Source: an uncultured bacterium | Lineage (GTDB): Bacteria > CAYJRR01 | NCBI GenBank assembly: GCA_964372275.1 | Contig: CAYJRR010000030.1 | Span: forward strand, 1 to 38,961 | Reading direction: 5' to 3' | DNA: 38,961 nt | In this document: positions 5,526-38,961 of the stretch, in pieces | Layout of the letters: each line of letters begins with the position of its first letter | How positions within the stretch are numbered: the first letter of the stretch is position 1 | Program-made: the position numbers and the translations under genes | Notes under the pieces: model-generated | The model's database searches: none | Seen by the model: the letters and a program-made list of their open reading frames with translations, nothing else | What the model was told of the DNA's origin: nothing

Positions 5526-5541
5526 GAAAGAGCCCTCCGGC

Positions 5542-7752: not shown

Positions 7753-7773
7753 CCGTCGCGACGCGGCCCGCGG

Positions 7774-14910: not shown

Positions 14911-15263
14911 TGATCGAACGTCGACCGCGTCGGACGAACGAGAAGGGCCAGTCGGCCGTCGAGGTCCTCTTCGGGATCCCGGTGCTGCTTACGATCTTCG
15001 TGCTCGGCTTCCAGCTCTTCGAGATCACCTGGAACGCGCAGTACGCGCACGTGCGAAGCCGCCAGGAGATGATGAACTTCGCGGCGCATCGGCCGTGCTT
15101 CGCCAACAACGACGGCGGAACGAACTCGCTCGGGAACGGCACCATCTCCCCGTCCCAGGCGCGGATCGACGCCACCCTCAACCCCGGAGCGCCGGGCTCC
15201 CCGGGACTGGTCCGCAGGCGCCAGATCCGGCACCGGGCCTCGGTCTACTGCAACCAACCGTGA
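14910..15263 (+). CDS. TadE-like minor pilin
   Basis: MIERRPRRTNEKGQSAVEVLFGIPVLLTIFVLGFQLFEI matches the TadE N-terminal domain. The start overlaps the upstream stop (TGATG). Confidence 0.65.
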   Translation: MIERRPRRTNEKGQSAVEVLFGIPVLLTIFVLGFQLFEITWNAQYAHVRSRQEMMNFAAHRPCFANNDGGTNSLGNGTISPSQARIDATLNPGAPGSPGLVRRRQIRHRASVYCNQP

Positions 15264-15265
15264 CG

Positions 15266-15826: not shown

Positions 15827-15878
15827 CTCCGGTCGTCGGAGCGGCGGCGATCCCCCCGATCGCGGGAAAGTCCCTCGT

Positions 15879-15908
15879 TTGACACGGTTTTTACGCCGGC
15901 GGTAAACT
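15879..15908 (+). promoter_or_regulatory. Sigma-70-like promoter candidate upstream of cpaB (TTGACA-N18-TAAACT)
   Basis: A perfect -35 hexamer TTGACA, an 18-nt spacer and a weak -10 TAAACT, ~50 nt upstream of the cpaB GTG. Confidence 0.3.
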
Positions 15909-15957
15909 GGCGCCACGCTTCGCTTACGTCGGCGCGGGCGTTCGAGGGTCCTCTCGC

Positions 15958-16785: not shown

Positions 16786-16804
16786 CAGCTACGCAGGGGG
16801 GTTC

Positions 16805-18256: not shown

Positions 18257-18258
18257 CG

Positions 18259-20445: not shown

Positions 20446-20487
20446 CGCGAGCACGGCGCGGGCCGGGGGCCGGACGGAGGAGGTCCG

Positions 20488-21390
20488 GTGATCCTTCGCA
20501 TCGTCTCCAGCGCGATCCTGGGGGTCGCGGCGTTCCTGTTCGTCGTCGGCTCCTACGAATGGTTCGCGCGGCGCCTGCGCGAGGCCACCACCGAATACGT
20601 CGCCTGGATGGTGACGATGTTCGACCGGATGTTCCTCACCGTCACCGCGCGGCAGTGCGTGATCCTGATCGCCGCCAGCACCGTCGGGACCGGGCTGATC
20701 ATGTTCTGGCTCACCGGGGCGTTGAGCGGAGCGACCTGGAAGTGGTTCATCCGGCTCCTCATCATCGGCGTGGCGATGAAGGGACCGTGGATCTTCCCCA
20801 TGGGCTGGTCGCTGCCGCGGAGGATCGTCAACTGGATGTGGCGGCGGCGGGTGAACAAGTTCGACGAGCAGATGCTCGACGGGCTGACCTTCCTCGCGAA
20901 CTCGATGAAGTCGGGGCTGTCGCTGCTGCAGGCGATCGACATGATCGTGCAGGAGCTCCCGAACCCGCTCTCGCAGGAGTGGGCGCTGGTATTGAGTCAG
21001 CAGAAGCTCGGGGTGCGGATCGACGAGGCCCTCGACAACCTGGAGAAGCGGATCGGCTCCGAGGACATCCAGATCGTCTGCACCAGCATCGGCATCCTCC
21101 GCGAGTCGGGCGGCAACCTGGCCGAGGTGTTCGACACCATCGCCTACACCATGCGCGAGCGGCGGAAGGTGGAGGGGAAGATCTCGGCGATGACGGCCCA
21201 GGGGGTGATGCAGGGGATCATCATCATGGCGATGCCGTTCGTCCTGGCGGCCGTCCTCTACGCCATGGATCCGGTCCTGATCGCCCGGTTGTGGCAGACG
21301 GTGCTCGGATGGGTCCTCCTGATCATGATGATGACCCTCCAGTTCGTGGGCGGGTACATCATCAAGAAGGTCGTGACCATCGAGGTCTAG
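20488..21390 (+). CDS. tadB: T2SSF-domain platform protein TadB
   Basis: A 300-aa polytopic membrane protein with the T2SSF domain (LDGLTFLANSMKSGLSLLQAIDMIV...). GTG start preceded by GGAGGAGG. Confidence 0.85.
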   Translation: MILRIVSSAILGVAAFLFVVGSYEWFARRLREATTEYVAWMVTMFDRMFLTVTARQCVILIAASTVGTGLIMFWLTGALSGATWKWFIRLLIIGVAMKGPWIFPMGWSLPRRIVNWMWRRRVNKFDEQMLDGLTFLANSMKSGLSLLQAIDMIVQELPNPLSQEWALVLSQQKLGVRIDEALDNLEKRIGSEDIQIVCTSIGILRESGGNLAEVFDTIAYTMRERRKVEGKISAMTAQGVMQGIIIMAMPFVLAAVLYAMDPVLIARLWQTVLGWVLLIMMMTLQFVGGYIIKKVVTIEV

Positions 21391-25182: not shown

Positions 25183-26103
25183 CTAAGCCACGGTCGGCCC
25201 GCGGAGCCTGGCGATCTCGTCGCGGACGAGGCGTTCCAACGCGTCGGGGTCGAGCGACCGTGCCGACGCAGGACGCGGGAGGCTTCCCGGGCCGTCCCCG
25301 CACCGAGGCGTATCCGCGGCGGTCGCGATCGGGGGCTCGACCGTGGCCCGCGGCGAGCGCCTCGTCGAGTCGGCGTCTGTGTCGGCGCCCCGCAGCGACT
25401 CCGAGGGACGACTCTGGGAGCCGGCTGCACGGGCGAGGGGCCCGAGTCCCGCGGCCGCGCGCTTCTGGAGGAGCGTCGCGACGTCGGCTTCGGGGAGTCG
25501 GTTGACGCGCCCGAGCTGCCGCGCCGCAAGCTCGATCGTCGCCAGGTGCTCCACCAGCTCGACGCGCAGGTACGCCTGCTCGACGTCGACGCCGACGGCG
25601 ATCACGCCGTGGTTGGCGAGCAACGCCGCGTCGGCGTCGACGAGCGCAGCCGCCAGCCCCTCCTCCAGCGCGGGGCTCCCGGGAAGGGCGTAGCCGACGA
25701 GCGGCGCCCCCGGACCGAGCGAGACGATCGCCTCGGCGAGGATCGGCGTCGTCAGCGCAAGCCCCGCGACGGCGAAGCCGGTGGCGGTGGGAGGATGGGC
25801 GTGCACCACCGCCTTCGCGTCGGCGCGCTCGCGGTAGCAGCGCAGGTGCAGGTGCAACTCCGAGAACGGCTTCCCCGCGGTTCGCTGCCCGTCGAGGAGA
25901 TTCCCGTCCGCCGATAGGAGAAGCACGTCGTCCGCGCCGATCAGGCGCTTGGATACGGCGGTCGGCGTGGCCAGGATCCGCCCGTCGTCGAGCCGGACGG
26001 TGACGTTCCCGTCGTGGTTCGCGGCCCAGCCGCGCTTCCACAAGAGCCTCGAGGCCGATGCGATCGCCTCCCGCAGCCGCTGCTCGTCCGCCGGCAGCGT
26101 CAC
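25183..26103 (-). CDS. Class II aldolase/adducin-family protein (fuculose-/rhamnulose-phosphate aldolase-like) with a C-terminal extension
   Basis: A ~215-aa aldolase core with metal-binding His residues (ELHLHLRCY...VVHAHPP...LANHGVIAVG). A ~90-aa disordered Pro/Ser/Ala/Arg linker follows. A terminal amphipathic helix (LDPDALERLVRDEIARLRG) closes the protein. GTG start in a GTGA overlap with the upstream stop. Confidence 0.85.
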   Translation of the reverse strand: MTLPADEQRLREAIASASRLLWKRGWAANHDGNVTVRLDDGRILATPTAVSKRLIGADDVLLLSADGNLLDGQRTAGKPFSELHLHLRCYRERADAKAVVHAHPPTATGFAVAGLALTTPILAEAIVSLGPGAPLVGYALPGSPALEEGLAAALVDADAALLANHGVIAVGVDVEQAYLRVELVEHLATIELAARQLGRVNRLPEADVATLLQKRAAAGLGPLARAAGSQSRPSESLRGADTDADSTRRSPRATVEPPIATAADTPRCGDGPGSLPRPASARSLDPDALERLVRDEIARLRGPTVA

Positions 26104-26420
26104 GCCCGGCCTCCCGGACCGCGGCGGGCGGCGCCGTCGAGCACCGATCCGTCCTCCATCTCCACCCGGTCGACGACCGCCATCACCACCGCGTGGATCG
26201 GATCGCTCTCCTTCCCCGCAAGCTGGCGCGCGGTGTTCCCTTCGCGCGAACAGAGGACGGTGTCACCGGGTCCGGCGCGGACCGTGTCGACCGCCAGGAA
26301 CAGGCGGCCGGCGTCCTTCCCCTTCGCGTCGATCGGCTGGCAGACGAGGACGATCTTTCCGTCGTAGCAGGCGTGCTTCTCCACCGCGACCGCGTTGCCG
26401 GTGATGCGCGCGAGGATCAC
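26100..26420 (-). CDS. BMC vertex (pentamer) protein, EutN/CcmL/PduN family (BMC-P)
   Basis: VILARITGNAVAVEKHACYDGKIVLVCQPID...GDTVLCSREGNTARQ matches the EutN_CcmL fold. The GTG start overlaps the stop of the upstream BMC-P (GTGA). The rest of track ORF 26100..26588 is Arg-rich extension. Confidence 0.8.
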   Translation of the reverse strand: MILARITGNAVAVEKHACYDGKIVLVCQPIDAKGKDAGRLFLAVDTVRAGPGDTVLCSREGNTARQLAGKESDPIHAVVMAVVDRVEMEDGSVLDGAARRGPGGRA

Positions 26421-26752
26421 GGCCGGTCTCCGCCGGGTTTCGTCCGGGCCTTCCGGGGTCCGTCCGCCAGGTCCGTGGCGTAGATCCCTTCGGCGAAGAT
26501 CTCCTCGGCGATCGCCACCACCGCGGCGTCGACCGGGACGAACGTCTCCGGCAGCGCCAGCGCCGCCTCCCGTCCGCCGACCCACCACACCACCTGTCCC
26601 GGCCCGGCGCTGAAGCGATCGGCCACGACGAACGGTTCTCCCACCGGGAGCATCGTCGTATCGACCGGCTGCGCCAGCAGCAGCTTCACCCCTTCGAGGC
26701 CGGGCGACTTCCGCTCGGCGACGACCGTTCCCAGCACGCGCGCCAGTTCCAT
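26417..26752 (-). CDS. BMC vertex protein, EutN/CcmL family (BMC-P)
   Basis: MELARVLGTVVAERKSPGLEGVKLLLAQPVD...PFVVADRFSAGPGQVVWWVGGREAA. The start ATG lies 23 codons inside track ORF 26417..26821. Confidence 0.8.
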   Translation of the reverse strand: MELARVLGTVVAERKSPGLEGVKLLLAQPVDTTMLPVGEPFVVADRFSAGPGQVVWWVGGREAALALPETFVPVDAAVVAIAEEIFAEGIYATDLADGPRKARTKPGGDRP

Positions 26753-26783
26753 CAGCGGCCCTCCTCGAGACGGTGGCGACGCG

Positions 26784-27362
26784 TCATCGCCGCCCCGTGA
26801 GGTTGGCGACCAGGTCGGCATGCGGCCGGGGGATCAGCTCCACGCCGACGAGGAACCCGTCCTGCTCGGCTCTCGCTTTCGCCGCGGCGACCGCCGCTTC
26901 CAGATCGGCGTGCGGCCCGGTCAGCGTGAAGTAGCCCTTGCCGCCGATCCCGTGGCCGAGGCGGATCTCGATCACCCGCACGTCGGCCGTCTTGGCGGCG
27001 ACGTCGGCGGCGGCGACGGTGGTGGCGAGGGAGAGCATCTCCACGATTGCCAGGGCGTCGACGTCGGGCACCTCGATCCTGCGACCGAGCGCGGCCACGA
27101 CGTCGGGGTGGACTTGCGGGAGGATCATCTGGTTGATCACCGTCGCGCCGCCGAGCGCCTTCCCTTCGGCGAGCGACTCCTCCACCGCCGCCACCTCGCC
27201 GGTGAAGACGAAGAGGTACTTTCCGGAGGAGACCGGCTCGGCGATCCGGACGGTGACCGGCGCGCGCTTGCTGACGGCATCGAGCACGCGCGCGCCGCGC
27301 CCGATGCTCGACAGCTCGAGCAGCGCGAGGGCCGGATCGGAGGACGGGGAGGCCGCGGGCAT
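26784..27362 (-). CDS. Tandem-BMC-domain shell protein (BMC-T)
   Basis: A 192-aa product with two BMC domains (ALALLELSSIGRGARVLDAVSKRAPVTVRIAEPVSSGKYLFVFTGEVAAVEES; ALAIVEMLSLATTVAAADVAAKTADVRVIEIRLGHGIGGKGYFTLTGPHADLEAAV). The start ATG lies 43 codons inside track ORF 26784..27491. Confidence 0.8.
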   Translation of the reverse strand: MPAASPSSDPALALLELSSIGRGARVLDAVSKRAPVTVRIAEPVSSGKYLFVFTGEVAAVEESLAEGKALGGATVINQMILPQVHPDVVAALGRRIEVPDVDALAIVEMLSLATTVAAADVAAKTADVRVIEIRLGHGIGGKGYFTLTGPHADLEAAVAAAKARAEQDGFLVGVELIPRPHADLVANLTGRR

Positions 27363-27433
27363 GAAGACCCCGCAGGATAGCGAAGCGGTCGGGGGAGGTA
27401 AACGAGCGTGCCGCCGGGGTATACTGCGTAGTC

Positions 27434-28537
27434 GTGGCGCACGGGAAGGCGGTGGTCTGGTCCCCGGTGAGCTACGAGCCGGGTCGCCCATGGCTGTGGA
27501 GCCGCCCGATCGACCGCCTGTTCGTCGCCGGCGGCGGCTTCTTCCTCGTCGCGGCCGTCCTCGTGCCGCTTTCGCTGCTGCCGTCGGTCGGCCCTTCGCT
27601 CAACGCGCTGCTGCTGCACCTCTCGGTTCTGGTCAACTACCCGCACTACACCTCCACCTACCAGGTGATCGTCCGCGAGCGGGAGCGCCGGCCCGCAAGC
27701 TTCCGGACGCTCCTCTGGAGCGCCTTTCCGATGGCGGCGCTCCTGGTCGTCGCCGGCCGGTGGCCCGACCTCCTGTGGGGGGTCGTCGTCCGGGGCTACC
27801 TTACCTGGTCGGCCTACCACTACGCCGCGCAGCACTTCGGGATCGCCGCGATGTACTGCGCGCGCGCGGGGACGCCGCTGGGCGCCCGCGAGAAGGGACC
27901 GTTGCAGGCGGCCTTTCTCGGCGTCGGCGGCTTCATGATGCTGATGGCCAACACCGTCGGAGGCGACGCCGACCTGGCCGCTCGCGTCGTGGGGCTGACC
28001 GAAAACGGCGGGGAGGTGCCGATCGCCGGGTTTCCGTCGTGGATGTACGGCGTCGGCCTGGCCCTGGTCGCGGCGAGCGGCGTGGCGTTCGCCGTGGCCG
28101 AGCGGCGGTTCGCCGCCCGCACCGGACGGACCTTCCTGCGCGAGGTCTGGATGTTGTTCGCGACCAACCTCGCCTGGTTCGTCGTTCCGAACCTGCGCCT
28201 GCCGGGGGGAGAGGGTTGGATGTGGCCCGGTCTCGCCCTGTGCCTGTTGGGCCTGCCGCCGTTCTTCCACGGGCTCCAGTACATGGCGGTGACGGGCCAC
28301 CGCAGCCGGACGACCGGTCCGGTCCGTCCGATCTGGCTCTTCGCCGGACTGGTGGCCGCAGGCTATCTGTTGTTCCACGGCCCGGTGCCGCTCCTGCCGG
28401 CGATCGCGCCCGTCGACGCTACACGGGGGATCCTGCTCCTGGTGTCGGTGATCAACCTCCACCACTTCTGGATGGACGGCCTGATCTGGCGTCGGGCGCG
28501 CGTGGCGGCCCTCCCCGCGTCGCCGCCCGTGTCGTGA
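27434..28537 (+). CDS. Polytopic membrane protein of unknown function (about eight TM helices)
   Basis: A 367-aa product rich in Trp/Tyr/His-containing hydrophobic helices (LNALLLHLSVLVNYPHYTSTYQ; WSAYHYAAQHFGIAAMY; LLLVSVINLHHFWMDGLIWRR). It is divergent from the BMC-T gene. The opposite-strand ORF 27137..28465 is Arg-rich junk. Confidence 0.55.
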   Translation: MAHGKAVVWSPVSYEPGRPWLWSRPIDRLFVAGGGFFLVAAVLVPLSLLPSVGPSLNALLLHLSVLVNYPHYTSTYQVIVRERERRPASFRTLLWSAFPMAALLVVAGRWPDLLWGVVVRGYLTWSAYHYAAQHFGIAAMYCARAGTPLGAREKGPLQAAFLGVGGFMMLMANTVGGDADLAARVVGLTENGGEVPIAGFPSWMYGVGLALVAASGVAFAVAERRFAARTGRTFLREVWMLFATNLAWFVVPNLRLPGGEGWMWPGLALCLLGLPPFFHGLQYMAVTGHRSRTTGPVRPIWLFAGLVAAGYLLFHGPVPLLPAIAPVDATRGILLLVSVINLHHFWMDGLIWRRARVAALPASPPVS

Positions 28538-28540
28538 TCC

Positions 28541-29335
28541 CTAGCGGCTGATGCCGACGCTGGGCCCGCCCGAGCCGGAGTTGGCGGGGCCGATCGTCGG
28601 AGGACGGCGCGGCAGCGGCGCCGTCACCACGGTCGTGTCGCCGCGTGCGACCTGCGATCCGGTGGAACGGTTGGTCGGGGCGAACCAGCCCGAGGTCTTG
28701 GAGCCGGTGAGCCAATCGAAGGCGCCCGCGGCGATGGGGAGCACGCTGCCGATGAACGACGCGGCGCCGGCCACCGTAGCGACCGTCGCGAGTACGCCGG
28801 CGGTGATTCCGACGGCGGCCCCTGCAGCCGCGACGGCCGGAAACGCGACCACCGCCAGTCCCCCGACGACTGCCGCCAGGGCGACGCCCGACGCGACGGC
28901 GGTCAGACCCGTGCGCCACTTTTCCGGCGTCGAGGCGTTCGGGTCCCGGATCGTGGTGTAGGCGACGGCGGCGTCGGCGCCGGCGAAGATCGCGTTGAAG
29001 ATGGGATTGATCCGGCCGAACGCCGCCGCGGCCTTTCCGGCGGAGGTGGAGATCCGGACGGCGAGCGGAATGCCGCGCTTCGCCCACTGGCGCGCGGCCG
29101 CGCGCCGGACCTGTCTCGAGGGGAACGAAGGACGGGTGACCCGTTCGATCCCCTTGAGGCTGTACTCGGTGGCGTCCTTCACGTCGTCGACGTTGGAGAG
29201 GCCGTTCCCGACGTCCTGGACCACCTGCAGCTCGGCCGGAAGCGACGGTTCCGGACGCTCCTGCGCCAGCGCCAGGACCGGCTCGGTGATCATCGTGACG
29301 GCGAGTCCGAGTGCGACCAGCGTGCGGTAGACCAT
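28541..29335 (-). CDS. Secreted or membrane-associated hypothetical protein
   Basis: An N-terminal signal-like segment (LVALGLAVTMITEPVLALAQE). A polar middle region. A C-terminal Ala/Gly/Val-rich hydrophobic block (about three helices). It is the last gene of the AldDH operon. A G9 tract lies 4 nt upstream of the ATG on the coding strand. Confidence 0.5.
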   Translation of the reverse strand: MVYRTLVALGLAVTMITEPVLALAQERPEPSLPAELQVVQDVGNGLSNVDDVKDATEYSLKGIERVTRPSFPSRQVRRAAARQWAKRGIPLAVRISTSAGKAAAAFGRINPIFNAIFAGADAAVAYTTIRDPNASTPEKWRTGLTAVASGVALAAVVGGLAVVAFPAVAAAGAAVGITAGVLATVATVAGAASFIGSVLPIAAGAFDWLTGSKTSGWFAPTNRSTGSQVARGDTTVVTAPLPRRPPTIGPANSGSGGPSVGISR

Positions 29336-29523
29336 GACTCCCCCCCCCGCCTTGTCTTACTCCACCAAGTGTGCCACTCCGGACGCATCTTAAGGTATGG
29401 GAATTTCAAGGAAACTTGATGTCGGGCTGGGGCGGCTCGCCCCCGGAGTTGGGCGGGGGGCGGAGACGATCGAACCCAGCGGCGGGTGGGGGCGATGCCC
29501 CGCCGGAACGGCGCCGAACCCCG

Positions 29524-30969
29524 CTACACGATTCGGAAATACTCTTTCAGCGTGCAGCGCCGTTCGCGGGTGAAGTTGCGGACGGTGGTCAGTCCCTCGC
29601 CGGTGGGGCTGGCGATGGTGAAGGAGGTGTAGCCCTCTCCGCCGTAGCCGAGGCCGGCGAAGTTGGGGGCGTTTTTCACGTAGATCGAGCAGTCCATCAC
29701 GCGCGCCATGGTGTGCAGCGCCTCGATGTTGCGCGAGTACATCACCGCCGTGTGGCGGTAGCCGTGCTCGACGCGCTTGGCCATGGCGATCCCTTCGGCG
29801 GCATCGCGCACCCGCACCAGCGGCAGCACCGGCATCAGCATCTCGTTCTGCACGAACGGGTGGGTCTCTCCGTCGACCTCGACCAGGATGGTGCGCGGAT
29901 CGCCCGGCACGGGATGGTCGATCCGCTCCAAGATGAGCCGCGCGTCCTTGCCGACCCAATCCTTGTTCGGGTGGCCGTCCTTGAGCACGACCGACTCCAG
30001 GCGCTTGGTGAGCGCCGGCGGGAGGAGATAGGCGCCGTGCTCGGTCATCTTCTGCTTGAGCGTGTCGGCGATCCTGTCGACCGCCAGGATCTCCTTCTCC
30101 GCGGTGCAGATGATGTTGTTGTCGAGCGAGTGTCCGGCGACGCAGCCCGCCGCCGCGCGGTCGAGGTCGGCCGTCTCGTCGACGACGGCCGGCGGGTTCC
30201 CGGGTCCGCCGGCGATCGTCTTCTTGCCGGAGGCCATCGCCGCCTTGACCACCGCCGGCCCGCCGGTGACGACGAGCAGCTGGATCCCCTTGTGCTTCAT
30301 CAGGGCGGTGGCCGAGTCGAGCGTCGGCTCGGCGATCATCGTCAGCACGTTCGCCGGTCCGCCCGCGCGCACCGACGCCTCGTTCATCAGGTTGACCGTC
30401 TTCGCGCAGCACCCTTTGGCGTAGGGGTGCGGGTTGAAGACGACGCTGTTGCCGCCGGAGACCATCCCGATCCCGTTGTTGATGATCGTCTCGGTCGGGT
30501 TGGTGGTGGGGGTGATCGCGCCGATCACGCCGTACGGGGCGCGCTCCACCAGCATCAGTCCGTCATCGCCGGAGTAGGCGATCGGCTCCAGGAACTCCGG
30601 GCCGGGGGTCTTGTCGATCACCAGCCGGTTCTTGATCCGCTTGTCGGAGGCTCGTCCGAGGCCGGTCTCCTTCGGCGCCCATTCGGCGAGGAGATCGACG
30701 TGATCGCGGAGCGTCGACCGCATCTCCTCGATCATCCGCTTGCGGACCTCCAGCGGCGTGCGGGCGAGCTCGCCGTGGGCCTGCTTCGCCGCCGCAATCG
30801 CCTCGTCGAGGGTCTGGAAGACGCCGCCGTTCCGGTAGTCGATCTCGTCCGGCGCGACCGGGGTGCGCGGGCGGGCCGCCGGGGCCTGGCCCTCGGTCGC
30901 CAGACGCGAGACGACGTTCTCGACGATCTGCTGGATCTGGGCGCGGTCGAGGGGCAGGGCGGCGGGCAT
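29524..30969 (-). CDS. CoA-acylating aldehyde dehydrogenase (PduP/EutE-like) with an N-terminal encapsulation peptide
   Basis: Aldehyde dehydrogenase fold with the catalytic Cys region (DNNIICTAEKE) and a Gly-rich NAD site (VVTGGPAVVKAAMASGKK). The N-terminal amphipathic helix (LDRAQIQQIVENVVSRL) is followed by a Pro/Ala linker. Confidence 0.9.
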   Translation of the reverse strand: MPAALPLDRAQIQQIVENVVSRLATEGQAPAARPRTPVAPDEIDYRNGGVFQTLDEAIAAAKQAHGELARTPLEVRKRMIEEMRSTLRDHVDLLAEWAPKETGLGRASDKRIKNRLVIDKTPGPEFLEPIAYSGDDGLMLVERAPYGVIGAITPTTNPTETIINNGIGMVSGGNSVVFNPHPYAKGCCAKTVNLMNEASVRAGGPANVLTMIAEPTLDSATALMKHKGIQLLVVTGGPAVVKAAMASGKKTIAGGPGNPPAVVDETADLDRAAAGCVAGHSLDNNIICTAEKEILAVDRIADTLKQKMTEHGAYLLPPALTKRLESVVLKDGHPNKDWVGKDARLILERIDHPVPGDPRTILVEVDGETHPFVQNEMLMPVLPLVRVRDAAEGIAMAKRVEHGYRHTAVMYSRNIEALHTMARVMDCSIYVKNAPNFAGLGYGGEGYTSFTIASPTGEGLTTVRNFTRERRCTLKEYFRIV

Positions 30970-30975
30970 CGGTGG

Positions 30976-31284
30976 CTACGCTCCGCCCGCTTTCTGGTAG
31001 AGGCGCCCCTCGCCGGTCTCGATCTCGTCGACGATCGCCATGATCACCGCGTCGCAGGGGCGGTCCTTGGTGGCGGCGGTCTGGCGCGCCGAGGAGCCGG
31101 TGGCGTAGAGCACCACCTCGCCGACCCCGGCGCCGACCGAATCGATCGCCACCACCATCCCCGAGCCGTCGACGAGCCCGCCGTCTTTCGTCGCGAGGTT
31201 CTTCACGACGTGGAGGCGCAACCCCTCGAGCTTTTCGTCCTTCTGGGTGGCGATCACCGTCCCGACGATGCGTCCGAGCTGCAT
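30976..31284 (-). CDS. BMC vertex protein EutN/CcmL/PduN family (BMC-P), third paralog
   Basis: MQLGRIVGTVIATQKDEKLEGLRLHVVKNLATKDGG...VVLYATGSSARQ. Confidence 0.85.
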   Translation of the reverse strand: MQLGRIVGTVIATQKDEKLEGLRLHVVKNLATKDGGLVDGSGMVVAIDSVGAGVGEVVLYATGSSARQTAATKDRPCDAVIMAIVDEIETGEGRLYQKAGGA

Positions 31285-31295
31285 CGGGACGGACC

Positions 31296-31610
31296 CTACT
31301 TCTTCCCGCCGACCACGCGCGCCGCGCCCGCCCCCGCGCGGCCGAGCGGCAGCGCGTCCTCGATGGCGTCGTGCGGCCGCGGAATGACGTGGACGCTGAC
31401 CAGCTCGCCGACGCGTTGGGCTCCCTTGGCCCCGGCCTCGGTGGCGGCCTTCACCGCCGCAACGTCGCCCCTCACGATCGCGGTCACGTAGCCGCCGCCG
31501 ATCTTTTCGTAGCCGATCAGCTCGACCTTCGCGGCCTTCACCATCGCGTCCGAGGCCTCGACCATCGCGGCGAAACCCTTGGTTTCGATCATCCCGAGCG
31601 CTTCTGCCAT
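31296..31610 (-). CDS. BMC hexamer shell protein (BMC-H, PduA/CcmK-like)
   Basis: [60 protein letters not shown]...VHVIPRPH. This is the canonical BMC domain. An AGAGGGA RBS sits 9 nt upstream. The start ATG lies 68 codons inside track ORF 31296..31814. Confidence 0.9.
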
Positions 31611-31624
31611 TGTCGTTCGTCCCT

Positions 31625-32248
31625 CTATTTCTCTTTGCCGGTGAGGTTTTTCAGCGCGTTGACCGCCGCCTCCGCCGCGCTGTCGATCTCGGCCTCGGGG
31701 CCGCCGAGGTAGAGACGGCCGAAGGCGCCGAAGAGCGTGGCGTCGATGAGCGTGACGTCCGCCGCCTTGAGCGCTTCGTTGGCGGCGTAGGCGATGTAGC
31801 CCGCCGGCTCGCACTCCAGGATGAAGAGCGACTGGCCGGCGATCAGCATCGACCCGAAACGGATCCGGTTGATCAGCTGCGTGTGGTACTCCTCGACGCC
31901 GCGGATGATGGTGTTGGAGACGATCCGCGGCTTGATCCGGTCGTGCTCGGTCACCTCGAGCTTTCCGAGGATCGCCTGGCCGGCGGCCACCACCTCGCCC
32001 TGTTCGGCGTGGTGCAGCTCCAAGAGGCCGAAGGCGCGCTCCACGACCATGATCGCGGGGGCCGCCTTGGTCGCCTTGAGCCCCGTGTCGAGCAGGCGGT
32101 TGATCGCCATACCCGGCGCCGTCTCGATGAAGAGCGACGCGTCGTGCGCGACCGGGAGGAAGCCGCGGGCGGTGGTCCCGATGAAGGCCGAGAGCTGTGG
32201 CTGGAGGCTGTCGAGAAAGACGTAGGTGCGCAGGGTTACGTCGGCCAT
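31625..32248 (-). CDS. Tandem-BMC-domain shell protein (BMC-T)
   Basis: A 207-aa product with two BMC-like domains ([45 protein letters not shown]...; [57 protein letters not shown]...). Confidence 0.85.
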
Positions 32249-32337: not shown

Positions 32338-34980
32338 TCACTCCCGGAGCATCTGCGCGAAGCGGGCGGCGACCTCCGGTCGTTCGGTGAGGACGGTGGC
32401 CCAGGCGCCGAGGCAGGCGGCGTAGCGCTCGGCGGACATGCCCGACTGGCGGATCGTCTCGGCGAGGTCGCCGCCGGACATCACCGCCTTCATGAGGCGG
32501 ACGTATTCGCCAAGACTCTTCACCGGCTGGTCGGGGAGGATCGGCTCGGCGTCGAGGGGGAGCCCCGCGGAGGCGGGCGCAGGGGCGGCGGCGGGTGTAG
32601 GGGCGGGTGCGGGTGCGACGGCGTTCGCGAGGCGGTCCTGCACCAGCGCGCGGAGCTGCTCGTCGGCGCGGCGGGCGATCAGGGCGGCGGCTTCGGCTTC
32701 GCGGACGGCCGCGTTCTGCTTTTCGGCCGCGAGGGCGGAGACGGCGGCGCGCCAGCTGGTCGCTTCGGCGCGCGCGCGGGCGCGGATGCGCACGTCGCCG
32801 ACCATTCGCAGCGATTCGTCGATCCGTTCGCAGCTCGACCGGAAGGGGGCGGCGGAGGTCTCCTTCTTCGGGAGCGACGCCAGCAGGTGCGCGTGGAAAT
32901 TTCGCCAGCGGCGCTCGAACCGCTCCAGCGCCTGCGCCAGGCCGGTGTCGGTCGGATTCTGGTTGAAGCGCGGCACGAGGTCCTCGACGAACCGGCCGAG
33001 CGCGCCGAGGCGCTTCACGACGTCGGCGTCGCCGGTCTCGACGGCGTCGAAGAGGCTGTCGGCGAGCGGCGCCGTCTCCTCGGAGCGGATCCGGTCGAGC
33101 ACCCGACCGACGAGCTCGTAGAGCCGGCCGGGGTCGGCGCGGTACTGGACCCGGAACGAGGCCGCGGCGTCGGTCCCCTTGAGCGGCGTCCCCGGGAGGT
33201 CGCGGTCCCGCGCCTCGAGCAGCTCCGACGGGAATCCGGAGAGCGCGACCAGCACCGCATCGCGCTCGTCGATCCGGGTTCGGAAGCGATCCCAGAGCGC
33301 TTCGAAGACCGCGGTTCGCGCCGGCGTCGGATCGATCAGCAGGACGGCGATCCGGGAGGCCAACGTCAGGCGCGCCTCGGTCGCCGACCGGTCCCAGATC
33401 CCCATCAGGATCTGGATGGCGCGGAGGTCGGTCGCGCGACCTCCCGGATTGCACCGGGCGTGGAGCACGAGGAGTGCCCGGAGCGTCGGATCGGCCGTCA
33501 TCTCGTCGGCGACCAGCTCGTCGAGGAGCGCGCCCGCCTCGCGGCTGCGGGCGTTGAGGAGCCACCGCTCGAATCCGGGCCGCATGGCGCAGGCGGCCCT
33601 CTCCTCGGGCCGCAGGCCGCCGATCGCCGACGTCGCGGCCGCGGCGAACTGGGACACCTCGACGTCGTCGCGCGGTCCGGCGGCCGGGTCGGCCGGCGGC
33701 TCGGTCGCCCAGGTGAGGAGGTCGAGCACCCGGTCGAGTCCGAGCGCGCGCGCGCTCCCCATGACGAACCGGCCGAGGAAGGCGCGGCAGGGCTGGTCGA
33801 AGTCGGCGAATCGAGCGTCGCCGCGCAGCCATCGGAACGCGGCCTCGCGGTACGCGTCGTCGGCGCGCAGCGTCCCCTGGAGCAACGCTTCGAGGGTGAC
33901 CACCGGTACCGGGTGTCGAAGTCCGCGCAGAACCGCGATCCGCAGCTCCTCCGGCCCGGAGGCGAGCCACCGGGCCACACGCGGGCTGCGGCGGCGCGCG
34001 AGCGACGTCAGCGCCAGCTCCAGCTTCGGCGAGACCCCTTCGTCGACGACGGCGGCGAGCGTCGCTTCGTGTCCGAGGGCCAGCGCGCAGGAGAACGCCA
34101 GGTCGGGATCGGGCCATTCGAGCCCTTCGCGCAACGGCCCGTCGAGCTCACTCGGATCCTCCGGGTCGGCGAGCGAGCAGGCGGCGGCGGCCCACGGGCG
34201 GAGGAGCGGATCCTCGAGCGCGGGCCGTGCGACGTCGGCGACGCGCCGGAGGTCGTCCGGACCGAGGCGTGGCACGAAGCCGTCGGTCGTGGGCACCTCG
34301 CGCATTCGCCACGAGCCCAGCGCCATCGCCGCCTCCAGCGCCAGGCCGATCGGCTCCGCGGCGTGCAGGCTCTTGCGCGCGGACTCGACGCGAGGCTCGG
34401 TCACGCGCCCCAGGCGGAGAAGCGCGATCGACGCCAAGGCCGCGGTCAGTTCGTCGGGGCTCGAGGCGGCGATCGTCTCCAACAGATCGTCCGCGCCGGG
34501 CGTGAAGGGTCCCTGCGGTCCGCTGCCCGCGAAGGCGAGCGGCTCCTCCCGCAGGGGCAGCGCCTGCATCCAACCGTCTTCAACCACCTCGGCCCATCCG
34601 GGGAGGAGCAGGTAACCTTCGCAGAAGCGCGCCTCCTCCACCCGCACGGCGATCCGGTCGGCCTGCCGCGCGTGGATCGCCGCCAGCGATTCGAGCTGCG
34701 ACGGCGTGAGGGACTGCAGCCGACGCTCGAGCGTCAGGCGGGTGGCGCCGTCGGCCTTCAGCATCCGGGCGACGCCGTACGACGCGGCGGGGACGAGCTT
34801 GCAGCCGCACGAGCGGCAGAAGGTCCCGGTCGACCAGCCGGCGCACCACGGGCAGCGCACCTCCTCGACGAAGGCCCCTCCGCAGGCGACGCAGGGTCCG
34901 GGGCGCCCGGTATCGCCGTCCGCCGGGCCGCTCCCCGTCGGGCTCGCTCCGCACGACTCGCATCGGAAGCGGGAGATCAC
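32338..34980 (-). CDS. Large alpha-helical protein with an N-terminal double zinc-ribbon, paralogous to the upstream gene
   Basis: GTG start in a GTGA overlap with the upstream stop. N-terminal CxxC...CxxC...CxxC...CxxC cluster (CESCG, CVACGG, CPWCAG, CRSCGC). About 800 aa of helical sequence follow. The C-terminal ~60 aa ([56 protein letters not shown]) are homologous to the C-terminus of gene 34977..36542. The remaining ~900 nt of track ORF 32338..35886 is Arg-rich, probably non-coding extension. Confidence 0.55.
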
Positions 34981-36542
34981 GTCCGCTCCGGTCCCGGCCC
35001 GCGCAGGATCTGGCCCATGCGCACCGCCAGCTCGGGCCGGCTCTTCAGCACCCGTCCCCAGGCCGACATGCACCGGGCGTAGGCCGAGAAGTCCATCCGG
35101 TGCGCGACCAGCAGCTCGTCGACCGATCGGCCGGTGGCGAGATCGTCGAGGAAGGCGAGGTAGCGGCGCAGCGTCGGAAGCGGCTCGGCCGGCAACACCG
35201 ACTCGTCCTCGAGAGGAAGGCCGTCGCGCTCCTGTGCCGCCGCGTCCTTCCGCCGTTCGATCCGATGCGTGTCGTCCTTCGCCGGGGACCGCGGCCGGCC
35301 GGGGTCGGTCGGAGCGTTCGCCCGCGCGCGATCGATCTCCGCCTCGAAGCTCTCCAGGACGACGAGGAGGGCGTCCCGCTGTCCGGGTTGCTCCTGGTAC
35401 CGCTTCCAGAACGCCTCGAAGAAACGGCGGCGGTCGAGCAGGAATCCTCGGCTCCAGCCGGCGGCCAGGGCACGCGCCATGGCCGGTCGGCCTCCTTCGG
35501 AAGCGCGGTCCCAGATCCCGAGCGCCAGGTCGAGCGCCGTCGGCGGCTCCACCACGCCGAGCCGGCCGGCGAGGGCGTGCATCGCGGCGAGCGCCCGGAA
35601 CAGCCCTTCCGCGACGCTCGGACTCGGGTCGGCCGCCCAGTCGTCGAGGACCGACGCCTCCTCGGGCCCATGGGCGGCGAACAGCCACAGCGTGAACTCT
35701 TTTCCGAACAGGCGGGCGCGTTCCTCGGGCCGTGCGCGCTTCAGCAGATGGGTCGCAGCCCGGACGATCGGACGGGTTGTGTCGTCGAAGCGGGGCGGCT
35801 CGCCGTCGACCCACGCCGCGCGCCGCAACGCGGAGAGCGCCTGGCCGGCGTCGATCGAGGCCTCCCGCGCCCGGGCTTCGAGCCAACGCCCCAGGAGGAT
35901 CGTTCGTTCGGGCGGAAGCCGGTCGAGCGTTTCGCGGTCGAACGCGATCTGCAGAAGCTCCCTCCGGACGTCGGCGTCCCCGGGATCGCGGTCGAGCAGG
36001 CGATCGACCTCTGCCGCGCGGTCCTCGCCGGACGGGGGGTTGGCGGCCGGGCGCGCGGCGGACGCCTCCCGCACGGCGATGTCAGGGTGGCGGGAGGCGA
36101 GCGAGTCGACGGTGGCGCGCTGCGCGGTGGTCAACCGGAGATCCGCGATCCGCAGGTAGGCGTCGAGGCGGGTGGTGGGAAGCGGATGGCTGCTCATCTG
36201 ACGGACCAGCCATTCGAACTCCTCGGGATCGGGCGCCCCCCGGAACGGGAGACGGCGGAGCGCCTCGATGAGAAGGGCGGCCCGCTTGGGATTGTCGCGG
36301 GCCACGTCGACCATGCGGCGGAAGGCGATCTCCCCTCCCACGTCGACCCGCGCCACCAGCTCCGGGATGCGTTCGCGGACCCCTTCGGTCTCGAGCGCCA
36401 CCGGCAGCTGCGCGAGGAGGCGCGCAATCTCGTCCTGGCTCACGGTGACGAGCGCCCGATCCCCTCCCGCGCGGAGGCGCTCGGCCAGCTCGCGGATCTC
36501 CCCGTCGGCGGGGCGCACGGCCTGCGGCATCTCGCGGCCCAT
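34977..36542 (-). CDS. Alpha-helical protein of unknown function, shorter paralog of the zinc-ribbon protein
   Basis: A 521-aa product. It shares internal blocks with the downstream gene (LALGIWDRASEGG / [13 protein letters not shown]; ALLVVLESFEAEIDRAR / [17 protein letters not shown]). It shares the C-terminal domain (LRRYLAFLDDLATGRSVDELLVAHRMDFSAYARCMSAWGRVLKSRPELAVRMGQIL). An alternative ATG start is at 36530. Confidence 0.55.
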   Translation of the reverse strand: MGREMPQAVRPADGEIRELAERLRAGGDRALVTVSQDEIARLLAQLPVALETEGVRERIPELVARVDVGGEIAFRRMVDVARDNPKRAALLIEALRRLPFRGAPDPEEFEWLVRQMSSHPLPTTRLDAYLRIADLRLTTAQRATVDSLASRHPDIAVREASAARPAANPPSGEDRAAEVDRLLDRDPGDADVRRELLQIAFDRETLDRLPPERTILLGRWLEARAREASIDAGQALSALRRAAWVDGEPPRFDDTTRPIVRAATHLLKRARPEERARLFGKEFTLWLFAAHGPEEASVLDDWAADPSPSVAEGLFRALAAMHALAGRLGVVEPPTALDLALGIWDRASEGGRPAMARALAAGWSRGFLLDRRRFFEAFWKRYQEQPGQRDALLVVLESFEAEIDRARANAPTDPGRPRSPAKDDTHRIERRKDAAAQERDGLPLEDESVLPAEPLPTLRRYLAFLDDLATGRSVDELLVAHRMDFSAYARCMSAWGRVLKSRPELAVRMGQILRGPGPERT

Positions 36543-36551
36543 GATCTCAGA

Positions 36552-37070
36552 TCAGAACGACCAGCGCGAGATCCAGCGCTGCGGCGTGAACGGCGGAATC
36601 GGCAACGGCGTGAGCAGCTCCCCTTCGCCGGGGCGCAGCAGCGACCGGAAGTCGAGCTTCTCGCCGGTGCGGTAGTAGTGCTCGAGATAGCGGTAGTCGG
36701 CGTGCCACCAGTCGGAAACCCAGCGGTCGAGGTCGTGGACGCCGACGTCGTGGAGGAGTTGCAGGCTGTATCGGGTGGCGTCCCTCTCGTACACGCGAAT
36801 CTTCCGCAGCTCCTCCTCCCCCTTGCCGATCGCAAGGTCGGCGCCCAGGCGCCGGTACTCCTCGGAGAGGTTCCACTGCACGGTATGGCCGAACAGGTGG
36901 ACGAGCACGAACAGCGCGCTGTCGAGCTCCTGGTCGAAGTCGACCGCGATCGTCATCCCGTCGAAGTCTCCGGTGTTCGGATCGAGGACGTCGGAGATCG
37001 AGACGGGGAGCCCGTACCGGTCTTCGACGTGCTTCTCGACCCGGGCGTACGCGTCGCGGAAGGTGGTCAC
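36552..37070 (-). CDS. Hypothetical protein (172 aa)
   Basis: The composition is non-Arg-biased and rich in Trp/Tyr/His (VLVHLFGHTVQWNLSEEYRR; WVSDWWHADYRYLEHYY). It sits 9 nt upstream of the next gene. The GTG start is taken from the track. Confidence 0.5.
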   Translation of the reverse strand: MTTFRDAYARVEKHVEDRYGLPVSISDVLDPNTGDFDGMTIAVDFDQELDSALFVLVHLFGHTVQWNLSEEYRRLGADLAIGKGEEELRKIRVYERDATRYSLQLLHDVGVHDLDRWVSDWWHADYRYLEHYYRTGEKLDFRSLLRPGEGELLTPLPIPPFTPQRWISRWSF

Positions 37071-37112
37071 GGCCCGGATCCTAGCGCGGCCCCGGCGACC
37101 AAGCTCGATCGG

Positions 37113-38885: not shown

Positions 38886-38902
38886 GTCGCGATGATACCG
38901 CT

Positions 38903-38961
38903 CAAGCGATCCGGGCGTCGGCGAGGGCGAGCGATTCGTCGAGCGCGGCGATGGCGAGGTC
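38903..38961 (-). CDS. 3' end of an unidentified minus-strand gene (C-terminus ...DLAIAALDESLALADARIA)
   Basis: Reverse-complement translation of the window end gives an open frame terminating in TGA at 38905-38903. Too short to classify. Confidence 0.2.

What the first reader, a model, noticed from the sequence alone, without database searches (positions are those of the whole stretch)
25183..32248. Compact microcompartment locus of the Haliangium 'HO' type: six shell genes plus only an aldehyde dehydrogenase and a class II aldolase
One BMC-H, three BMC-P and two BMC-T genes are present. The enzymes are a PduP-like CoA-acylating aldehyde dehydrogenase and a class II aldolase. There is no phosphotransacylase (PduL), no alcohol dehydrogenase and no signature enzyme such as a diol dehydratase, so this is an incomplete-core metabolosome.

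From memory and unverified, the BMC-H sequence ([60 protein letters not shown]...) is very close to the H. ochraceum shell hexamer, and H. ochraceum has the same 1 H / 3 P / 3 T inventory.

The physiological substrate of HO-type compartments is unknown. The aldolase suggests generation of an aldehyde, for example lactaldehyde or glycolaldehyde from a sugar phosphate, inside the shell.

The locus is bisected by a divergently transcribed polytopic membrane protein (27434..28537) that could be the substrate transporter.
Basis: partly seen in the sequence, partly recalled or inferred. Interest (0 to 1): 0.6.

Follow-up and report, generated by a model that had tools for sequence, protein, structure and literature searches.

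The report
Known HO-type microcompartment locus, type II
This is a real gene cluster for a protein-shelled bacterial organelle of the already catalogued "HO" kind (type II layout), so it is a new example of a known and still functionally unsolved system; the membrane protein lying inside it is a lineage-specific insertion, not a conserved transporter.

Summary
On the minus strand between 25183 and 32248 lie one BMC-H, three BMC-P, one single-layer BMC-T, one CcmP/CsoS1D-like double-layer BMC-T, a CoA-acylating aldehyde dehydrogenase and a class II aldolase. The window is a whole 38,961-bp MAG contig, and it holds no PduL, alcohol dehydrogenase or other signature enzyme.

The best solved-structure matches for the BMC-H, the double-layer BMC-T and one BMC-P are the H. 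ochraceum shell proteins (78, 63 and 58% identity). In 80 related genome loci the gene order is Tdp-H-P-AldDH-Ts, with or without P-P and an aldolase. This locus has the full order. That is the "HO type II" layout already described by Sutter et al. 2021.

Both enzymes carry encapsulation-peptide-like tails: N-terminal on the dehydrogenase, C-terminal on the aldolase.

The "substrate transporter" idea is not supported:
- Two genes are inserted between AldDH and BMC-T: a 367-aa membrane protein and a 264-aa orphan.
- Neither occurs in any of the 80 related loci.
- Three sampled homologues of the membrane protein sit in non-BMC contexts.
- Its confident AlphaFold model matches no transporter fold.

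Verdict: a new member of a known kind, of low interest. The substrate remains unknown.

The parts
31625..32248 (-). BMC-Tdp: a double-stacking, CcmP/CsoS1D-like tandem-BMC shell trimer of 207 aa. It is the first gene of the shell/AldDH sub-operon.
   Evidence: The best PDB match is HO-5816, E 1e-79 and 63% identity over 202 aa; CcmP and CsoS1D follow. NCBIfam CcmP scores 266 bits, below its cut-off of 340. Pfam finds a BMC domain. A homologue is mapped in most of the related loci, always in the same first position (64 near-full-length matches, median 63% identity).
31296..31610 (-). BMC-H, the only hexamer gene (104 aa).
   Evidence: Pfam BMC E 1e-30. It is 78% identical to HO-5815 over 92 aa, which is the best natural PDB match. 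Median identity to related loci is 81%.
30976..31284 (-). BMC-P 'P_c', a pentamer orthologous to HO-5814 (102 aa).
   Evidence: Pfam EutN_CcmL E 4e-26. The best PDB match is the 5V74 pentamer, E 8e-25 and 58% identity.
29524..30969 (-). CoA-acylating aldehyde dehydrogenase of the PduP/EutE type (481 aa).
   Evidence: NCBIfam PRK15398 scores 640 bits against a cut-off of 403. The best PDB matches are BMC-associated AldDHs 5JFL and 4C3S, E 1e-122 to 1e-125. The catalytic Cys288 in DNNIIC is invariant in 23 relatives.
30898..30951 (-). N-terminal encapsulation-peptide-like amphipathic helix of the AldDH (about residues 7-24, LDRAQIQQIVENVVSRLA), followed by a Pro/Ala-rich linker.
   Evidence: It has the highest hydrophobic moment in the protein. 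The N-terminal pattern D-x-x-x-I-Q-x-I-V-x-x-V-x-x-R-L is kept in relatives (consensus). [quoted passage not shown] Function is inferred.
28541..29335 (-). Inserted orphan ORF of 264 aa with a signal-peptide-like N-terminus and a Gly/Ala-rich hydrophobic stretch. It is not a BMC component.
   Evidence: The word-indexed search of 5.8 billion proteins returned only the query itself. No Pfam or NCBIfam hit. Absent from 80 related loci. Hydropathy. GC3 of 0.89 fits coding sequence.
27434..28537 (+). Inserted polytopic membrane protein of 367 aa. It is divergent from BMC-Ts and convergent with the orphan ORF. It belongs to an uncharacterised family with invariant His/Asn/Asp motifs.
26784..27359 (-). 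BMC-Ts, a single-layer PduT-like tandem-BMC trimer (191 aa). It is the first gene of the second sub-operon.
   Evidence: Pfam finds two BMC domains. PDB matches: 3NWG at 136 bits and HO-5812 (5DIH) at 102 bits. It has Ser where 3NWG has the PVCPGK Cys (alignment), so no Fe-S ligand is expected. It follows AldDH in 76 related loci.
26417..26752 (-). BMC-P 'P_b' (111 aa).
   Evidence: Pfam EutN_CcmL E 1e-22. Orthologues at 38-69% identity sit in the same position in type II loci. It is only 33-38% identical to the other two BMC-P.
26100..26420 (-). BMC-P 'P_a' (106 aa, GTG start).
   Evidence: Pfam EutN_CcmL E 1e-17. The start and the 4-nt overlaps with both neighbours are shown. Orthologues at 37-59% identity in type II loci.
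25183..26103 (-). Class II aldolase/adducin-family enzyme (306 aa) of the HO-locus subfamily, and the candidate signature enzyme.
   Evidence: Pfam Aldolase_II E 2e-44. The metal-binding His (HAH, NHG) and the catalytic Glu (FSE) align with FucA and DrdA. No NCBIfam equivalog cut-off is reached. It is 38-53% identical to the aldolases in 15 type II loci.
25201..25257 (-). C-terminal encapsulation-peptide-like helix of the aldolase (LDPDALERLVRDEIARLRG), after a linker of about 65 aa rich in Pro, Ser, Ala and Arg.
   Evidence: A terminal motif (L/V)V(R/A)(D/E)AL(K/R/Q)RL(G/R) following a linker is present in about 10 of the 14 related-locus aldolases; two more carry a looser C-terminal amphipathic tail and one has none. 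Sutter 2021 reports a possible C-terminal EP on about a third of HO aldolases. Function is inferred.

Best explanation
The region encodes a bacterial microcompartment (metabolosome) of the HO type in its type II layout: Tdp-H-P-AldDH then Ts-P-P-aldolase.

Shown:
- All six shell genes and both enzymes are intact.
- Three shell proteins are closest to the H. ochraceum shell proteins.
- The gene order equals that of related Myxococcota-like loci.
- The catalytic residues of both enzymes are present.
- Both enzymes carry terminal amphipathic-helix extensions behind disordered linkers.

Inferred mechanism:
1. The shell self-assembles from one hexamer, three pentamer paralogues and two (probably three) trimers.
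2. The extensions recruit the aldolase and the dehydrogenase into the lumen.
3. The aldolase cleaves a ketose-1-phosphate into DHAP plus a short aldehyde such as acetaldehyde, glycolaldehyde or lactaldehyde.
4. The dehydrogenase converts that aldehyde with NAD+ and CoA into an acyl-CoA before it can escape.
5. NAD+ and CoA are not recycled by locus-encoded PduL or ADH. They must either pass the shell, plausibly through the gated double-layer BMC-T pores, or be regenerated by unlinked enzymes.

The two genes between AldDH and BMC-Ts are a lineage-specific insertion. They split the locus into two transcription units and are not part of the organelle.

Confidence is about 0.9 for the identity as an HO type II locus and about 0.45 for the specific aldolase-to-AldDH chemistry.
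For: - Domain assignments.
- HO shell proteins as best solved-structure matches.
- Gene order: 80 related loci share Tdp-H-P-AldDH-Ts. 28 of them continue with P-P, and 15 of those have the aldolase within 10 kb.
- Literature: Sutter 2021 defines HO type II exactly this way and reports the AldDH N-terminal EP and aldolase C-terminal extension.
- AldDH: it passes the NCBIfam PduP/EutE-type cut-off and has the invariant Cys.
- Aldolase: the metal ligands and Glu are conserved, and the C-terminal tail motif is conserved among HO-locus aldolases.
- Operon structure: intergenic gaps of 6-14 bp and 4-nt start/stop overlaps indicate two tight operons.
- Missing core: no PduL, ADH or other signature enzyme in the contig, and no conserved extra enzyme across the 80 loci.
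- Inserted genes: absent elsewhere. The AldDH-Ts junction also holds unrelated inserts in 13 other loci, for example PduS-like and cyclase genes.
Against: - The substrate is not established. The aldolase reaches no equivalog threshold (best 112 bits against a cut-off of 250).
- It is equally distant from DrdA (31%) and FucA (34%).
- It has Glu where FucA and DrdA have the active-site Tyr, Phe for FucA Ser71 and Ala for Gly44. It may therefore act on a different substrate or not be an aldolase at all.
- The single-layer BMC-T is closer to a PduT-like structure than to HO-5812.
- The satellite BMC-Tdp expected for HO cannot be looked for, because the contig is all that is available.
- Encapsulation and expression are untested.
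Confidence: 0.8

Rival explanations
1. The shell and AldDH are as described, but the class II aldolase-family protein is not the aldehyde generator. The signature enzyme would be encoded elsewhere, for example a DeoC-type pfam01791 aldolase with an EP as Sutter 2021 suggests for some HO genomes. The pfam00596 protein would then perform another reaction of its superfamily: decarboxylation, epimerisation or dehydration.
For: The best NCBIfam similarity is to 3-oxo-tetronate 4-phosphate decarboxylase, though far below the cut-off. The FucA/DrdA active-site Tyr is replaced by Glu in all HO-locus aldolases. Only 15 of 28 type II loci have the aldolase within 10 kb of the AldDH. Sutter 2021 notes DeoC-type enzymes with EP-like extensions in some HO genomes.
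Against: The metal ligands and the catalytic Glu of aldolases are kept. The gene is translationally coupled to the BMC-P genes and carries a conserved EP-like tail. pfam00596 aldolases are the accepted signature enzymes of PVM and GRM5 BMCs. The rest of this genome cannot be searched.
Confidence: 0.25
2. One reading: the divergently transcribed 367-aa membrane protein is the dedicated substrate transporter of this microcompartment.
For: It lies inside the locus, 74 bp from the BMC-Ts start on the opposite strand, and it is polytopic.
Confidence: 0.04
3. The locus is a decaying remnant: the two-gene insertion broke the operon and the compartment is no longer made.
For: The insertion separates AldDH from Ts-P-P-aldolase, and one inserted gene runs antisense. 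In 61 of 76 related loci the AldDH-Ts gap is at most 120 bp.
Against: All eight BMC genes are full length with conserved catalytic and structural residues. Translational coupling is retained. Type I organisms naturally express the same components from separate loci. 13 other loci tolerate inserts at this junction.
Confidence: 0.05

Closest known systems
HO BMC, type II (Sutter et al. 2021, Nat Commun 12:3809, Suppl. Data 2; 11 loci catalogued)
   Same: One BMC-H, a BMC-P triplet in the main locus, one BMC-Ts and one main-locus CsoS1D-like BMC-Tdp. AldDH with an N-terminal EP. A pfam00596 aldolase in the main locus with a possible C-terminal EP. No PTAC or AlcDH. Myxococcota-like host. The gene order Tdp-H-P-AldDH-Ts-P-P-aldolase equals that of 15 genome loci mapped here.
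   Different: A 2.2-kb, two-gene insertion (membrane protein plus orphan) between AldDH and BMC-Ts that is seen in no other locus. An unusually long aldolase linker of about 65 aa. The lineage is divergent: apart from a few short-contig relatives at 73-86%, AldDH relatives are at most 65% identical.
HO BMC, type I (Haliangium ochraceum Hoch_5812-5816 plus satellites; model shell 5V74)
   Same: The same shell inventory and orthologous H, Tdp and P proteins at 78, 63 and 58% identity. The same AldDH-centred incomplete core.
   Different: In type I the two extra BMC-P and the aldolase sit on a satellite locus, whereas here they are in the main locus. The BMC-Ts here is closer to PduT-like 3NWG than to HO-5812.
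PVM / PVM-like BMC (Planctomycetes-Verrucomicrobia; fucose/rhamnose)
   Same: A pfam00596 class II aldolase acts as the aldehyde-generating signature enzyme feeding an acylating AldDH. This is the working model adopted here.
   Different: From general knowledge of the PVM literature, not checked here: PVM loci encode a PduL-type PTAC and further core and ancillary enzymes and have a different shell set. The HO aldolase subfamily has Glu in place of the FucA Tyr113 position.
ACI BMC (Acidobacteria; Sutter 2021)
   Same: A pfam00596 aldolase with a C-terminal EP, a BMC-P triplet, and unknown function.
   Different: ACI has a hydroxyacid dehydrogenase in the locus and its AldDH on a satellite. 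Here the AldDH is central and there is no such dehydrogenase.
SPU BMC (sugar-phosphate utilisation; DeoC + RpiB)
   Same: An incomplete core. A sugar-phosphate aldolase yields an aldehyde for the AldDH. HO AldDHs are reported as closest to SPU5/SPU7.
   Different: SPU uses pfam01791 (DeoC) and pfam02502 (RpiB). Neither is present in this contig.

Membership tests
HO-type BMC (Sutter 2021) | A single BMC-H with standard hexamer sequence, orthologous to Hoch_5815 | tested here: met
   One BMC-H gene, and no other single-domain BMC gene in the window. It is 78% identical to HO-5815, the best natural PDB match.
HO-type BMC (Sutter 2021) | A BMC-P triplet (three divergent pentamer paralogues) | tested here: met
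   Three EutN_CcmL genes, mutually 32-38% identical. Each has positional orthologues in related loci. Assignment to the grey, orange and other clades of the published tree was not tested.
HO-type BMC (Sutter 2021) | A main-locus BMC-Tdp of the CsoS1D-like clade | tested here: met
   Full-length matches to HO-5816 (E 1e-79), CcmP and CsoS1D. It is the first gene of the locus, as in related loci.
HO-type BMC (Sutter 2021) | A second BMC-Tdp on a satellite locus | not testable with these tools
   The window is the entire 38,961-bp contig. The protein was not on record for a contig look-up, and the rest of the genome is not available.
HO-type BMC (Sutter 2021) | One BMC-Ts directly downstream of the AldDH | tested here: met
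   A tandem-BMC, PduT-like protein without the Fe-S Cys. It is in the same relative position as in 76 loci, except for the 2.2-kb insertion. Its closest solved structure is 3NWG, not HO-5812.
HO-type BMC (Sutter 2021) | An acylating AldDH with an N-terminal encapsulation peptide, in the HO AldDH clade (sister to SPU5/SPU7) | tested here: inconclusive
   The enzyme type and the EP-like N-terminus are met. Its 80 best genome relatives all sit in HO-ordered loci. Placement on the published AldDH tree relative to SPU5/7 was not computed, because no reference sequences were at hand.
HO-type BMC, type II | The two further BMC-P, and in about half of loci a pfam00596 aldolase, in the main locus rather than on a satellite | tested here: met
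   Ts-P-P-aldolase lies 2.2 kb from the AldDH on the same strand. The order is identical in 15 related loci.
Metabolosome with incomplete core (Axen 2014) | AldDH present, but PTAC (PduL/Pta) and/or AlcDH absent from the locus | tested here: met
   No such Pfam families in any plausible gene of the contig. No conserved extra enzyme cluster across 80 related loci. Unlinked copies elsewhere in the genome cannot be excluded.
L-fuculose-/rhamnulose-1-phosphate aldolase (FucA/RhaD) or DrdA equivalog | Reaches the NCBIfam equivalog cut-off and keeps the FucA active-site Tyr113 and Ser71 | tested here: not met
   The best equivalog scores are 100-112 bits against cut-offs of 250-400. Tyr becomes Glu and Ser71 becomes Phe, and both changes are conserved in the HO-locus subfamily. 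The metal ligands and the catalytic Glu are kept.
Known transporter families (for the 367-aa membrane protein) | Sequence or fold similarity to a transporter family, and conserved linkage to BMC loci | tested here: not met

The most novel reading that the evidence does not exclude
The HO-locus aldolases, including this one, form a distinct class II aldolase subfamily. They have Glu in place of the FucA/DrdA active-site Tyr, Phe for Ser71, and a conserved C-terminal LVRDALxRLG targeting tail. Their substrate would then be neither fuculose-, rhamnulose- nor 5-deoxyribulose-1-phosphate. That would make them the unrecognised signature enzyme defining the long-enigmatic function of the HO compartment.

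A weaker add-on: in this lineage the inserted His-rich membrane protein and the secreted orphan have been recruited to couple the organelle to the envelope.
Probability: 0.12. Interest if true: 0.55.

Novelty: new member of a known kind. Interest (0 to 1): 0.2.

Why it matters
The HO shell is the main structural and engineering model for microcompartments, yet its natural function is still unknown. This contig adds one more natural type II locus from a divergent, high-GC (70%) Myxococcota-like lineage.

Its modest value is threefold:
- It shows both candidate cargo enzymes with clear targeting extensions in one locus.
- It shows that the AldDH-BMC-T junction tolerates unrelated insertions.
- Together with the 15 related loci, it supplies a conserved aldolase subfamily signature that could guide substrate screens.

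It does not change the picture of what HO compartments are.

Tried and rejected
- **Source and flanks.** Exact look-up of the window's AldDH found no contig on record. The window is the whole contig.
- **Membrane protein as transporter.** Rejected on synteny, family scans and fold searches. The AlphaFold-database fold library was unavailable.
- **Orphan 264-aa ORF.** No homologue, so no context could be obtained.
- **Mobile-element origin of the insertion.** No terminal direct or inverted repeats beyond chance-level short matches, and GC is like the surroundings.
- **Riboswitch or other RNA regulator.** No Rfam match in the window.
- **Promoters.** The sigma-70 scan found none in this 70% GC DNA, and terminator-like hits were at background level. 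A TGGCAC-N5-GTGG sigma-54-like element upstream of the orphan ORF was seen by eye only.
- **Upstream paralogue pair (32338-36542) as BMC partners.** They are absent from 80 HO loci, have no Pfam, NCBIfam or PADLOC hit, and have about 210 distant relatives without context. They are treated as neighbours, not as parts.
- **Substrate assignment from the best PDB hit.** DrdA (6BTD) makes acetaldehyde (PMC6079011), but the margin over FucA is too small to use (31 against 34% identity).
- **Newer literature.** A search for an experimentally established HO function found none.

Full report
**1. What is in the sequence**

The window is 70% G+C. It is an entire 38,961-bp contig of an NCBI assembly: the AldDH, aldolase, BMC-T and other products are on record only from a contig of exactly that length.

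Third-position GC analysis and ORF listing give a run of minus-strand genes. Pfam identifies them as follows.

| Coordinates | Gene |
|---|---|
| 31625-32248 | BMC-T |
| 31296-31610 | BMC-H |
| 30976-31284 | BMC-P |
| 29524-30969 | aldehyde dehydrogenase (AldDH) |
| 26784-27359 | BMC-T with two BMC domains |
| 26417-26752 | BMC-P |
| 26100-26420 | BMC-P |
| 25183-26103 | class II aldolase |

Between the AldDH and the second BMC-T lie two genes without any family hit. One is a 264-aa ORF on the minus strand (28541-29335). The other is a 367-aa membrane protein on the plus strand (27434-28537).

Gene spacing is operon-like. Gaps of 14, 11 and 6 bp separate the first four genes. GTGA start/stop overlaps join BMC-P/BMC-P and BMC-P/aldolase. 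Two points need adding: the start of one BMC-P is at 26420, and a second inserted gene was overlooked.

**2. Is the core really incomplete?**

Every other plausible gene of the contig was scanned.
- Downstream are a PKD-domain secreted protein, an amidase/YkuD protein, a PP-loop ATPase, a Tad/Flp pilus cluster, FHA-domain proteins, a Ser/Thr kinase and a phosphodiesterase.
- Upstream, on the same strand, are two paralogous proteins of unknown function, a 186-aa unknown and an FG-GAP/cadherin-like protein.
- There is no PduL or Pta, no alcohol dehydrogenase, no diol or glycerol dehydratase, no glycyl-radical enzyme, no DeoC or RpiB, and no EutBC.
- No Rfam RNA is present.

Because the contig ends, unlinked genes cannot be excluded.

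**3. Relationship to the H. ochraceum system**

Results against all solved structures:
- The BMC-H is closest to HO-5815, at 78% identity over 92 aa.
- The 207-aa BMC-T is closest to HO-5816 (E 1e-79, 63% identity), ahead of CcmP and CsoS1D. It is therefore a double-stacking BMC-Tdp.
- The BMC-P next to the AldDH is closest to the 5V74 pentamer HO-5814, at 58% identity.
- The 191-aa BMC-T is a PduT-like single-layer trimer. Its best hit is 3NWG (136 bits), ahead of HO-5812 (102 bits). It has Ser at the position of the Cys in 3NWG's PVCPGK motif.

The AldDH passes the NCBIfam PduP/EutE-type model, scoring 640 bits against a cut-off of 403. It resembles the BMC AldDHs 5JFL and 4C3S, and its catalytic Cys288 is invariant in relatives.

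**4. Related loci**

The AldDH has thousands of homologues. The nearest are 86% identical, from a 12-kb MAG contig (L001), and 73%. After a few such short-contig relatives, identities fall to about 65% or less.

A scan of one genome per species returned 80 loci at 54-62% identity, mostly Myxococcota/Polyangia MAGs. Mapping the window's proteins on them with tblastn gave one invariant order, Tdp-H-P-AldDH-Ts. The 80 loci divide as follows:
- 38 stop after Ts (type I).
- 28 continue with P-P (type II). Of these, 15 have the aldolase within 10 kb, usually directly after the second BMC-P.
- 14 are cut by contig ends.

Clustering all ORFs of these loci found no further conserved enzyme. The only other recurrent neighbours were a sigma-54 activator with an FHA domain, a Ser/Thr kinase, a MutH-like protein and an asparagine synthase-like protein, each in subsets of loci.

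This reproduces the published description. Sutter et al. 2021 list 41 HO loci. In type I, which includes H. ochraceum, the two extra BMC-P and a pfam00596 aldolase lie on a satellite. In type II they are in the main locus and only a BMC-Tdp is on a satellite. [quoted passage not shown] The function is 'enigmatic' (PMC8217296). Axen et al. 2014 already noted the 1 H / 3 P / 3 T inventory and the incomplete core (PMC4207490).

The window is thus an HO type II locus.

**5. Cargo targeting**

The AldDH begins with LDRAQIQQIVENVVSRLA, the most amphipathic segment of the protein. A Pro/Ala-rich linker follows. The pattern is conserved in relatives.

The aldolase domain ends near residue 220. It is followed by about 65 residues rich in Pro, Ser, Ala and Arg, and then by LDPDALERLVRDEIARLRG. 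About 10 of the 14 aldolases from related loci end in the same kind of motif, (L/V)V(R/A)(D/E)AL(K/R/Q)RL(G/R), after a linker of variable length; two more have a looser amphipathic tail.

These are sequence features typical of encapsulation peptides. Their function here is inferred.

**6. What the aldolase might do**

The three His metal ligands and the catalytic Glu align with E. coli FucA and with B. thuringiensis DrdA.
- DrdA (6BTD) is the best PDB hit. It cleaves 5-deoxyribulose-1-phosphate to DHAP and acetaldehyde (PMC6079011).
- The identities are 31% to DrdA and 34% to FucA.
- No NCBIfam equivalog threshold is approached.
- All HO-locus aldolases share PF(L/M)AEP where FucA and DrdA have the active-site Tyr. 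Most have FSE instead of SSE and TPTAV instead of TPTG/SPSG.

The enzyme is therefore a member of a distinct subfamily with an unassigned substrate.

The working model is that a ketose-1-phosphate is cleaved to DHAP plus a short aldehyde, which the AldDH converts to an acyl-CoA. It rests on analogy with PVM and GRM5 BMCs and is marked as inference. How NAD+ and CoA are recycled without PduL or ADH is unknown, as for all HO loci.

**7. The two inserted genes**

*The 367-aa membrane protein*
- It has about 29 homologues, none with a Pfam domain.
- Three homologues at 42-56% identity were inspected in their contigs. They lie next to GT87/GT2 glycosyltransferases and a methyltransferase, next to TrmD/RimM/S16, or next to UvrD. 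None lies near BMC genes.
- Neither it nor the 264-aa ORF occurs in any of the 80 HO loci.
- In the closest relative, L001, the gene after the AldDH is a different protein.
- The family has invariant NYPH, SxHHY..Q, FFH..QY and HH...D...W motifs.

*The 264-aa ORF*
- It is an orphan with a signal-peptide-like start and a Gly/Ala-rich hydrophobic region.

*The junction*
- It is a recurrent insertion point. 13 of 76 loci carry 0.6-4.8 kb there. The inserts include PduS-like flavoproteins (L008, L027, L055), a cyclase domain (L052, L079) and lipoprotein-like genes.
- No repeats or compositional shift mark a mobile element.

The transporter hypothesis is therefore not supported. The insertion simply splits the locus into two transcription units, much as type I organisms keep these components at separate loci.

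**8. Upstream neighbours**

Two paralogous genes precede the BMC-Tdp on the same strand: 34977-36542 (521 aa) and 32338-34980 (880 aa, with a Cys-rich zinc-ribbon-like N-terminus). They are joined by a GTGA overlap.
- A relative lies next to the HO locus in L001, and the same pair order occurs on a 6-kb metagenome contig.
- They are absent from the 80 other HO loci.
- They have no family annotation.
- They belong to a small family of about 210 clusters.

I regard them as lineage-specific neighbours.

**9. Verdict**

The incomplete core is confirmed within the contig. The transporter suggestion is not supported.

The locus is a new member of a known, catalogued kind, and interest is low. The only mildly novel leads are the conserved active-site differences of the HO aldolase subfamily and the uncharacterised membrane-protein family noticed in passing.

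Noticed in passing
window 27434-28537 (+): A 367-aa polytopic membrane protein from a small uncharacterised family of about 29 homologues with no Pfam or NCBIfam hit. It has invariant NYPH, SxHHY..Q, FFH..QY and HH...D...W motifs that suggest a metal site. A confident AlphaFold model (pLDDT 88.5) has no significant structural neighbour in the PDB.
   Followed up: partly
window 28541-29335 (-): A 264-aa orphan ORF with a signal-peptide-like N-terminus and a Gly/Ala-rich hydrophobic segment. The word-indexed search of 5.8 billion proteins returned only the query itself. GC3 of 0.89 and a GGGGGAG ribosome-binding-like site suggest it is a real gene. A TGGCAC-N5-GTGG sigma-54-like element lies upstream (by eye only).
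   Followed up: partly
window 32338-34980 and 34977-36542 (-): A translationally coupled pair of paralogous large proteins of unknown function. The 880-aa one has a Cys-rich zinc-ribbon-like N-terminus, and both share a ~60-aa helical C-terminal domain behind a Pro/Ala linker. The family has about 210 clusters at E <= 1e-3 among 1.84 billion representatives. The same pair order is on metagenome contig L085, and a relative is next to the HO locus in L001, but the family is absent from 80 other HO loci.
   Followed up: partly
window 36552-37112 (-): A 186-aa protein with no family hit, containing an HLFGH motif. It is tightly packed between an FG-GAP/cadherin-like secreted protein (37113-38960) and the paralogue pair.
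   Followed up: no
window 25183-26103 and aldolases in L030, L035, L040, L046, L053, L055, L056, L057, L058, L072, L074: The HO-locus class II aldolases form a subfamily with Glu where FucA and DrdA have the active-site Tyr (PF(L/M)AEP motif). Most have Phe for FucA Ser71, and most carry a conserved extreme C-terminal LVRDALxRLG-type tail.
   Followed up: partly
L008 11423-12763, L027 11443-12774, L055 11389-12762; L052 and L079 about 11480-12080; L025, L041, L049, L051: The AldDH-BMC-Ts junction of HO loci is an insertion hot spot. It holds PduS-like flavoproteins (Complex1_51K + Fer4 + RnfC_N), a nucleotide cyclase domain, or lipoprotein-like genes in different lineages.
   Followed up: partly
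L006, L016, L018, L022, L031, L037, L073, L075 (between BMC-H and AldDH): In a group of Polyangia type I loci, no P_c-like pentamer was mapped between BMC-H and AldDH; the 1.3-4.4-kb stretch there holds other ORFs, including a MutH-like protein and, in some loci, a Ser/Thr kinase. A sigma-54 activator with an FHA domain recurs nearby in 16 loci.
   Followed up: partly
loci L021, L032, L040, L058, L072 and others (record titles): Several MAGs titled Klebsiella pneumoniae, Enterobacterales, Rickettsiales, Gammaproteobacteria or WWE3 carry HO loci with the typical Myxococcota-like gene order. GC was 64% and 71% in the two such loci where it was computed. The bin taxonomy labels look unreliable.
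   Followed up: no
window 1474-2394 and 13486-21390 (+): A Tad/Flp-type pilus cluster (TadE/G-like, RcpC/CpaB, secretin, a ParA-like domain fused to a CpaF-type ATPase, two TadB/C-like T2SSF proteins). Next to it are three FHA-domain proteins, one with PAS and others with TPR, and a Ser/Thr kinase (2527-9684).
   Followed up: no
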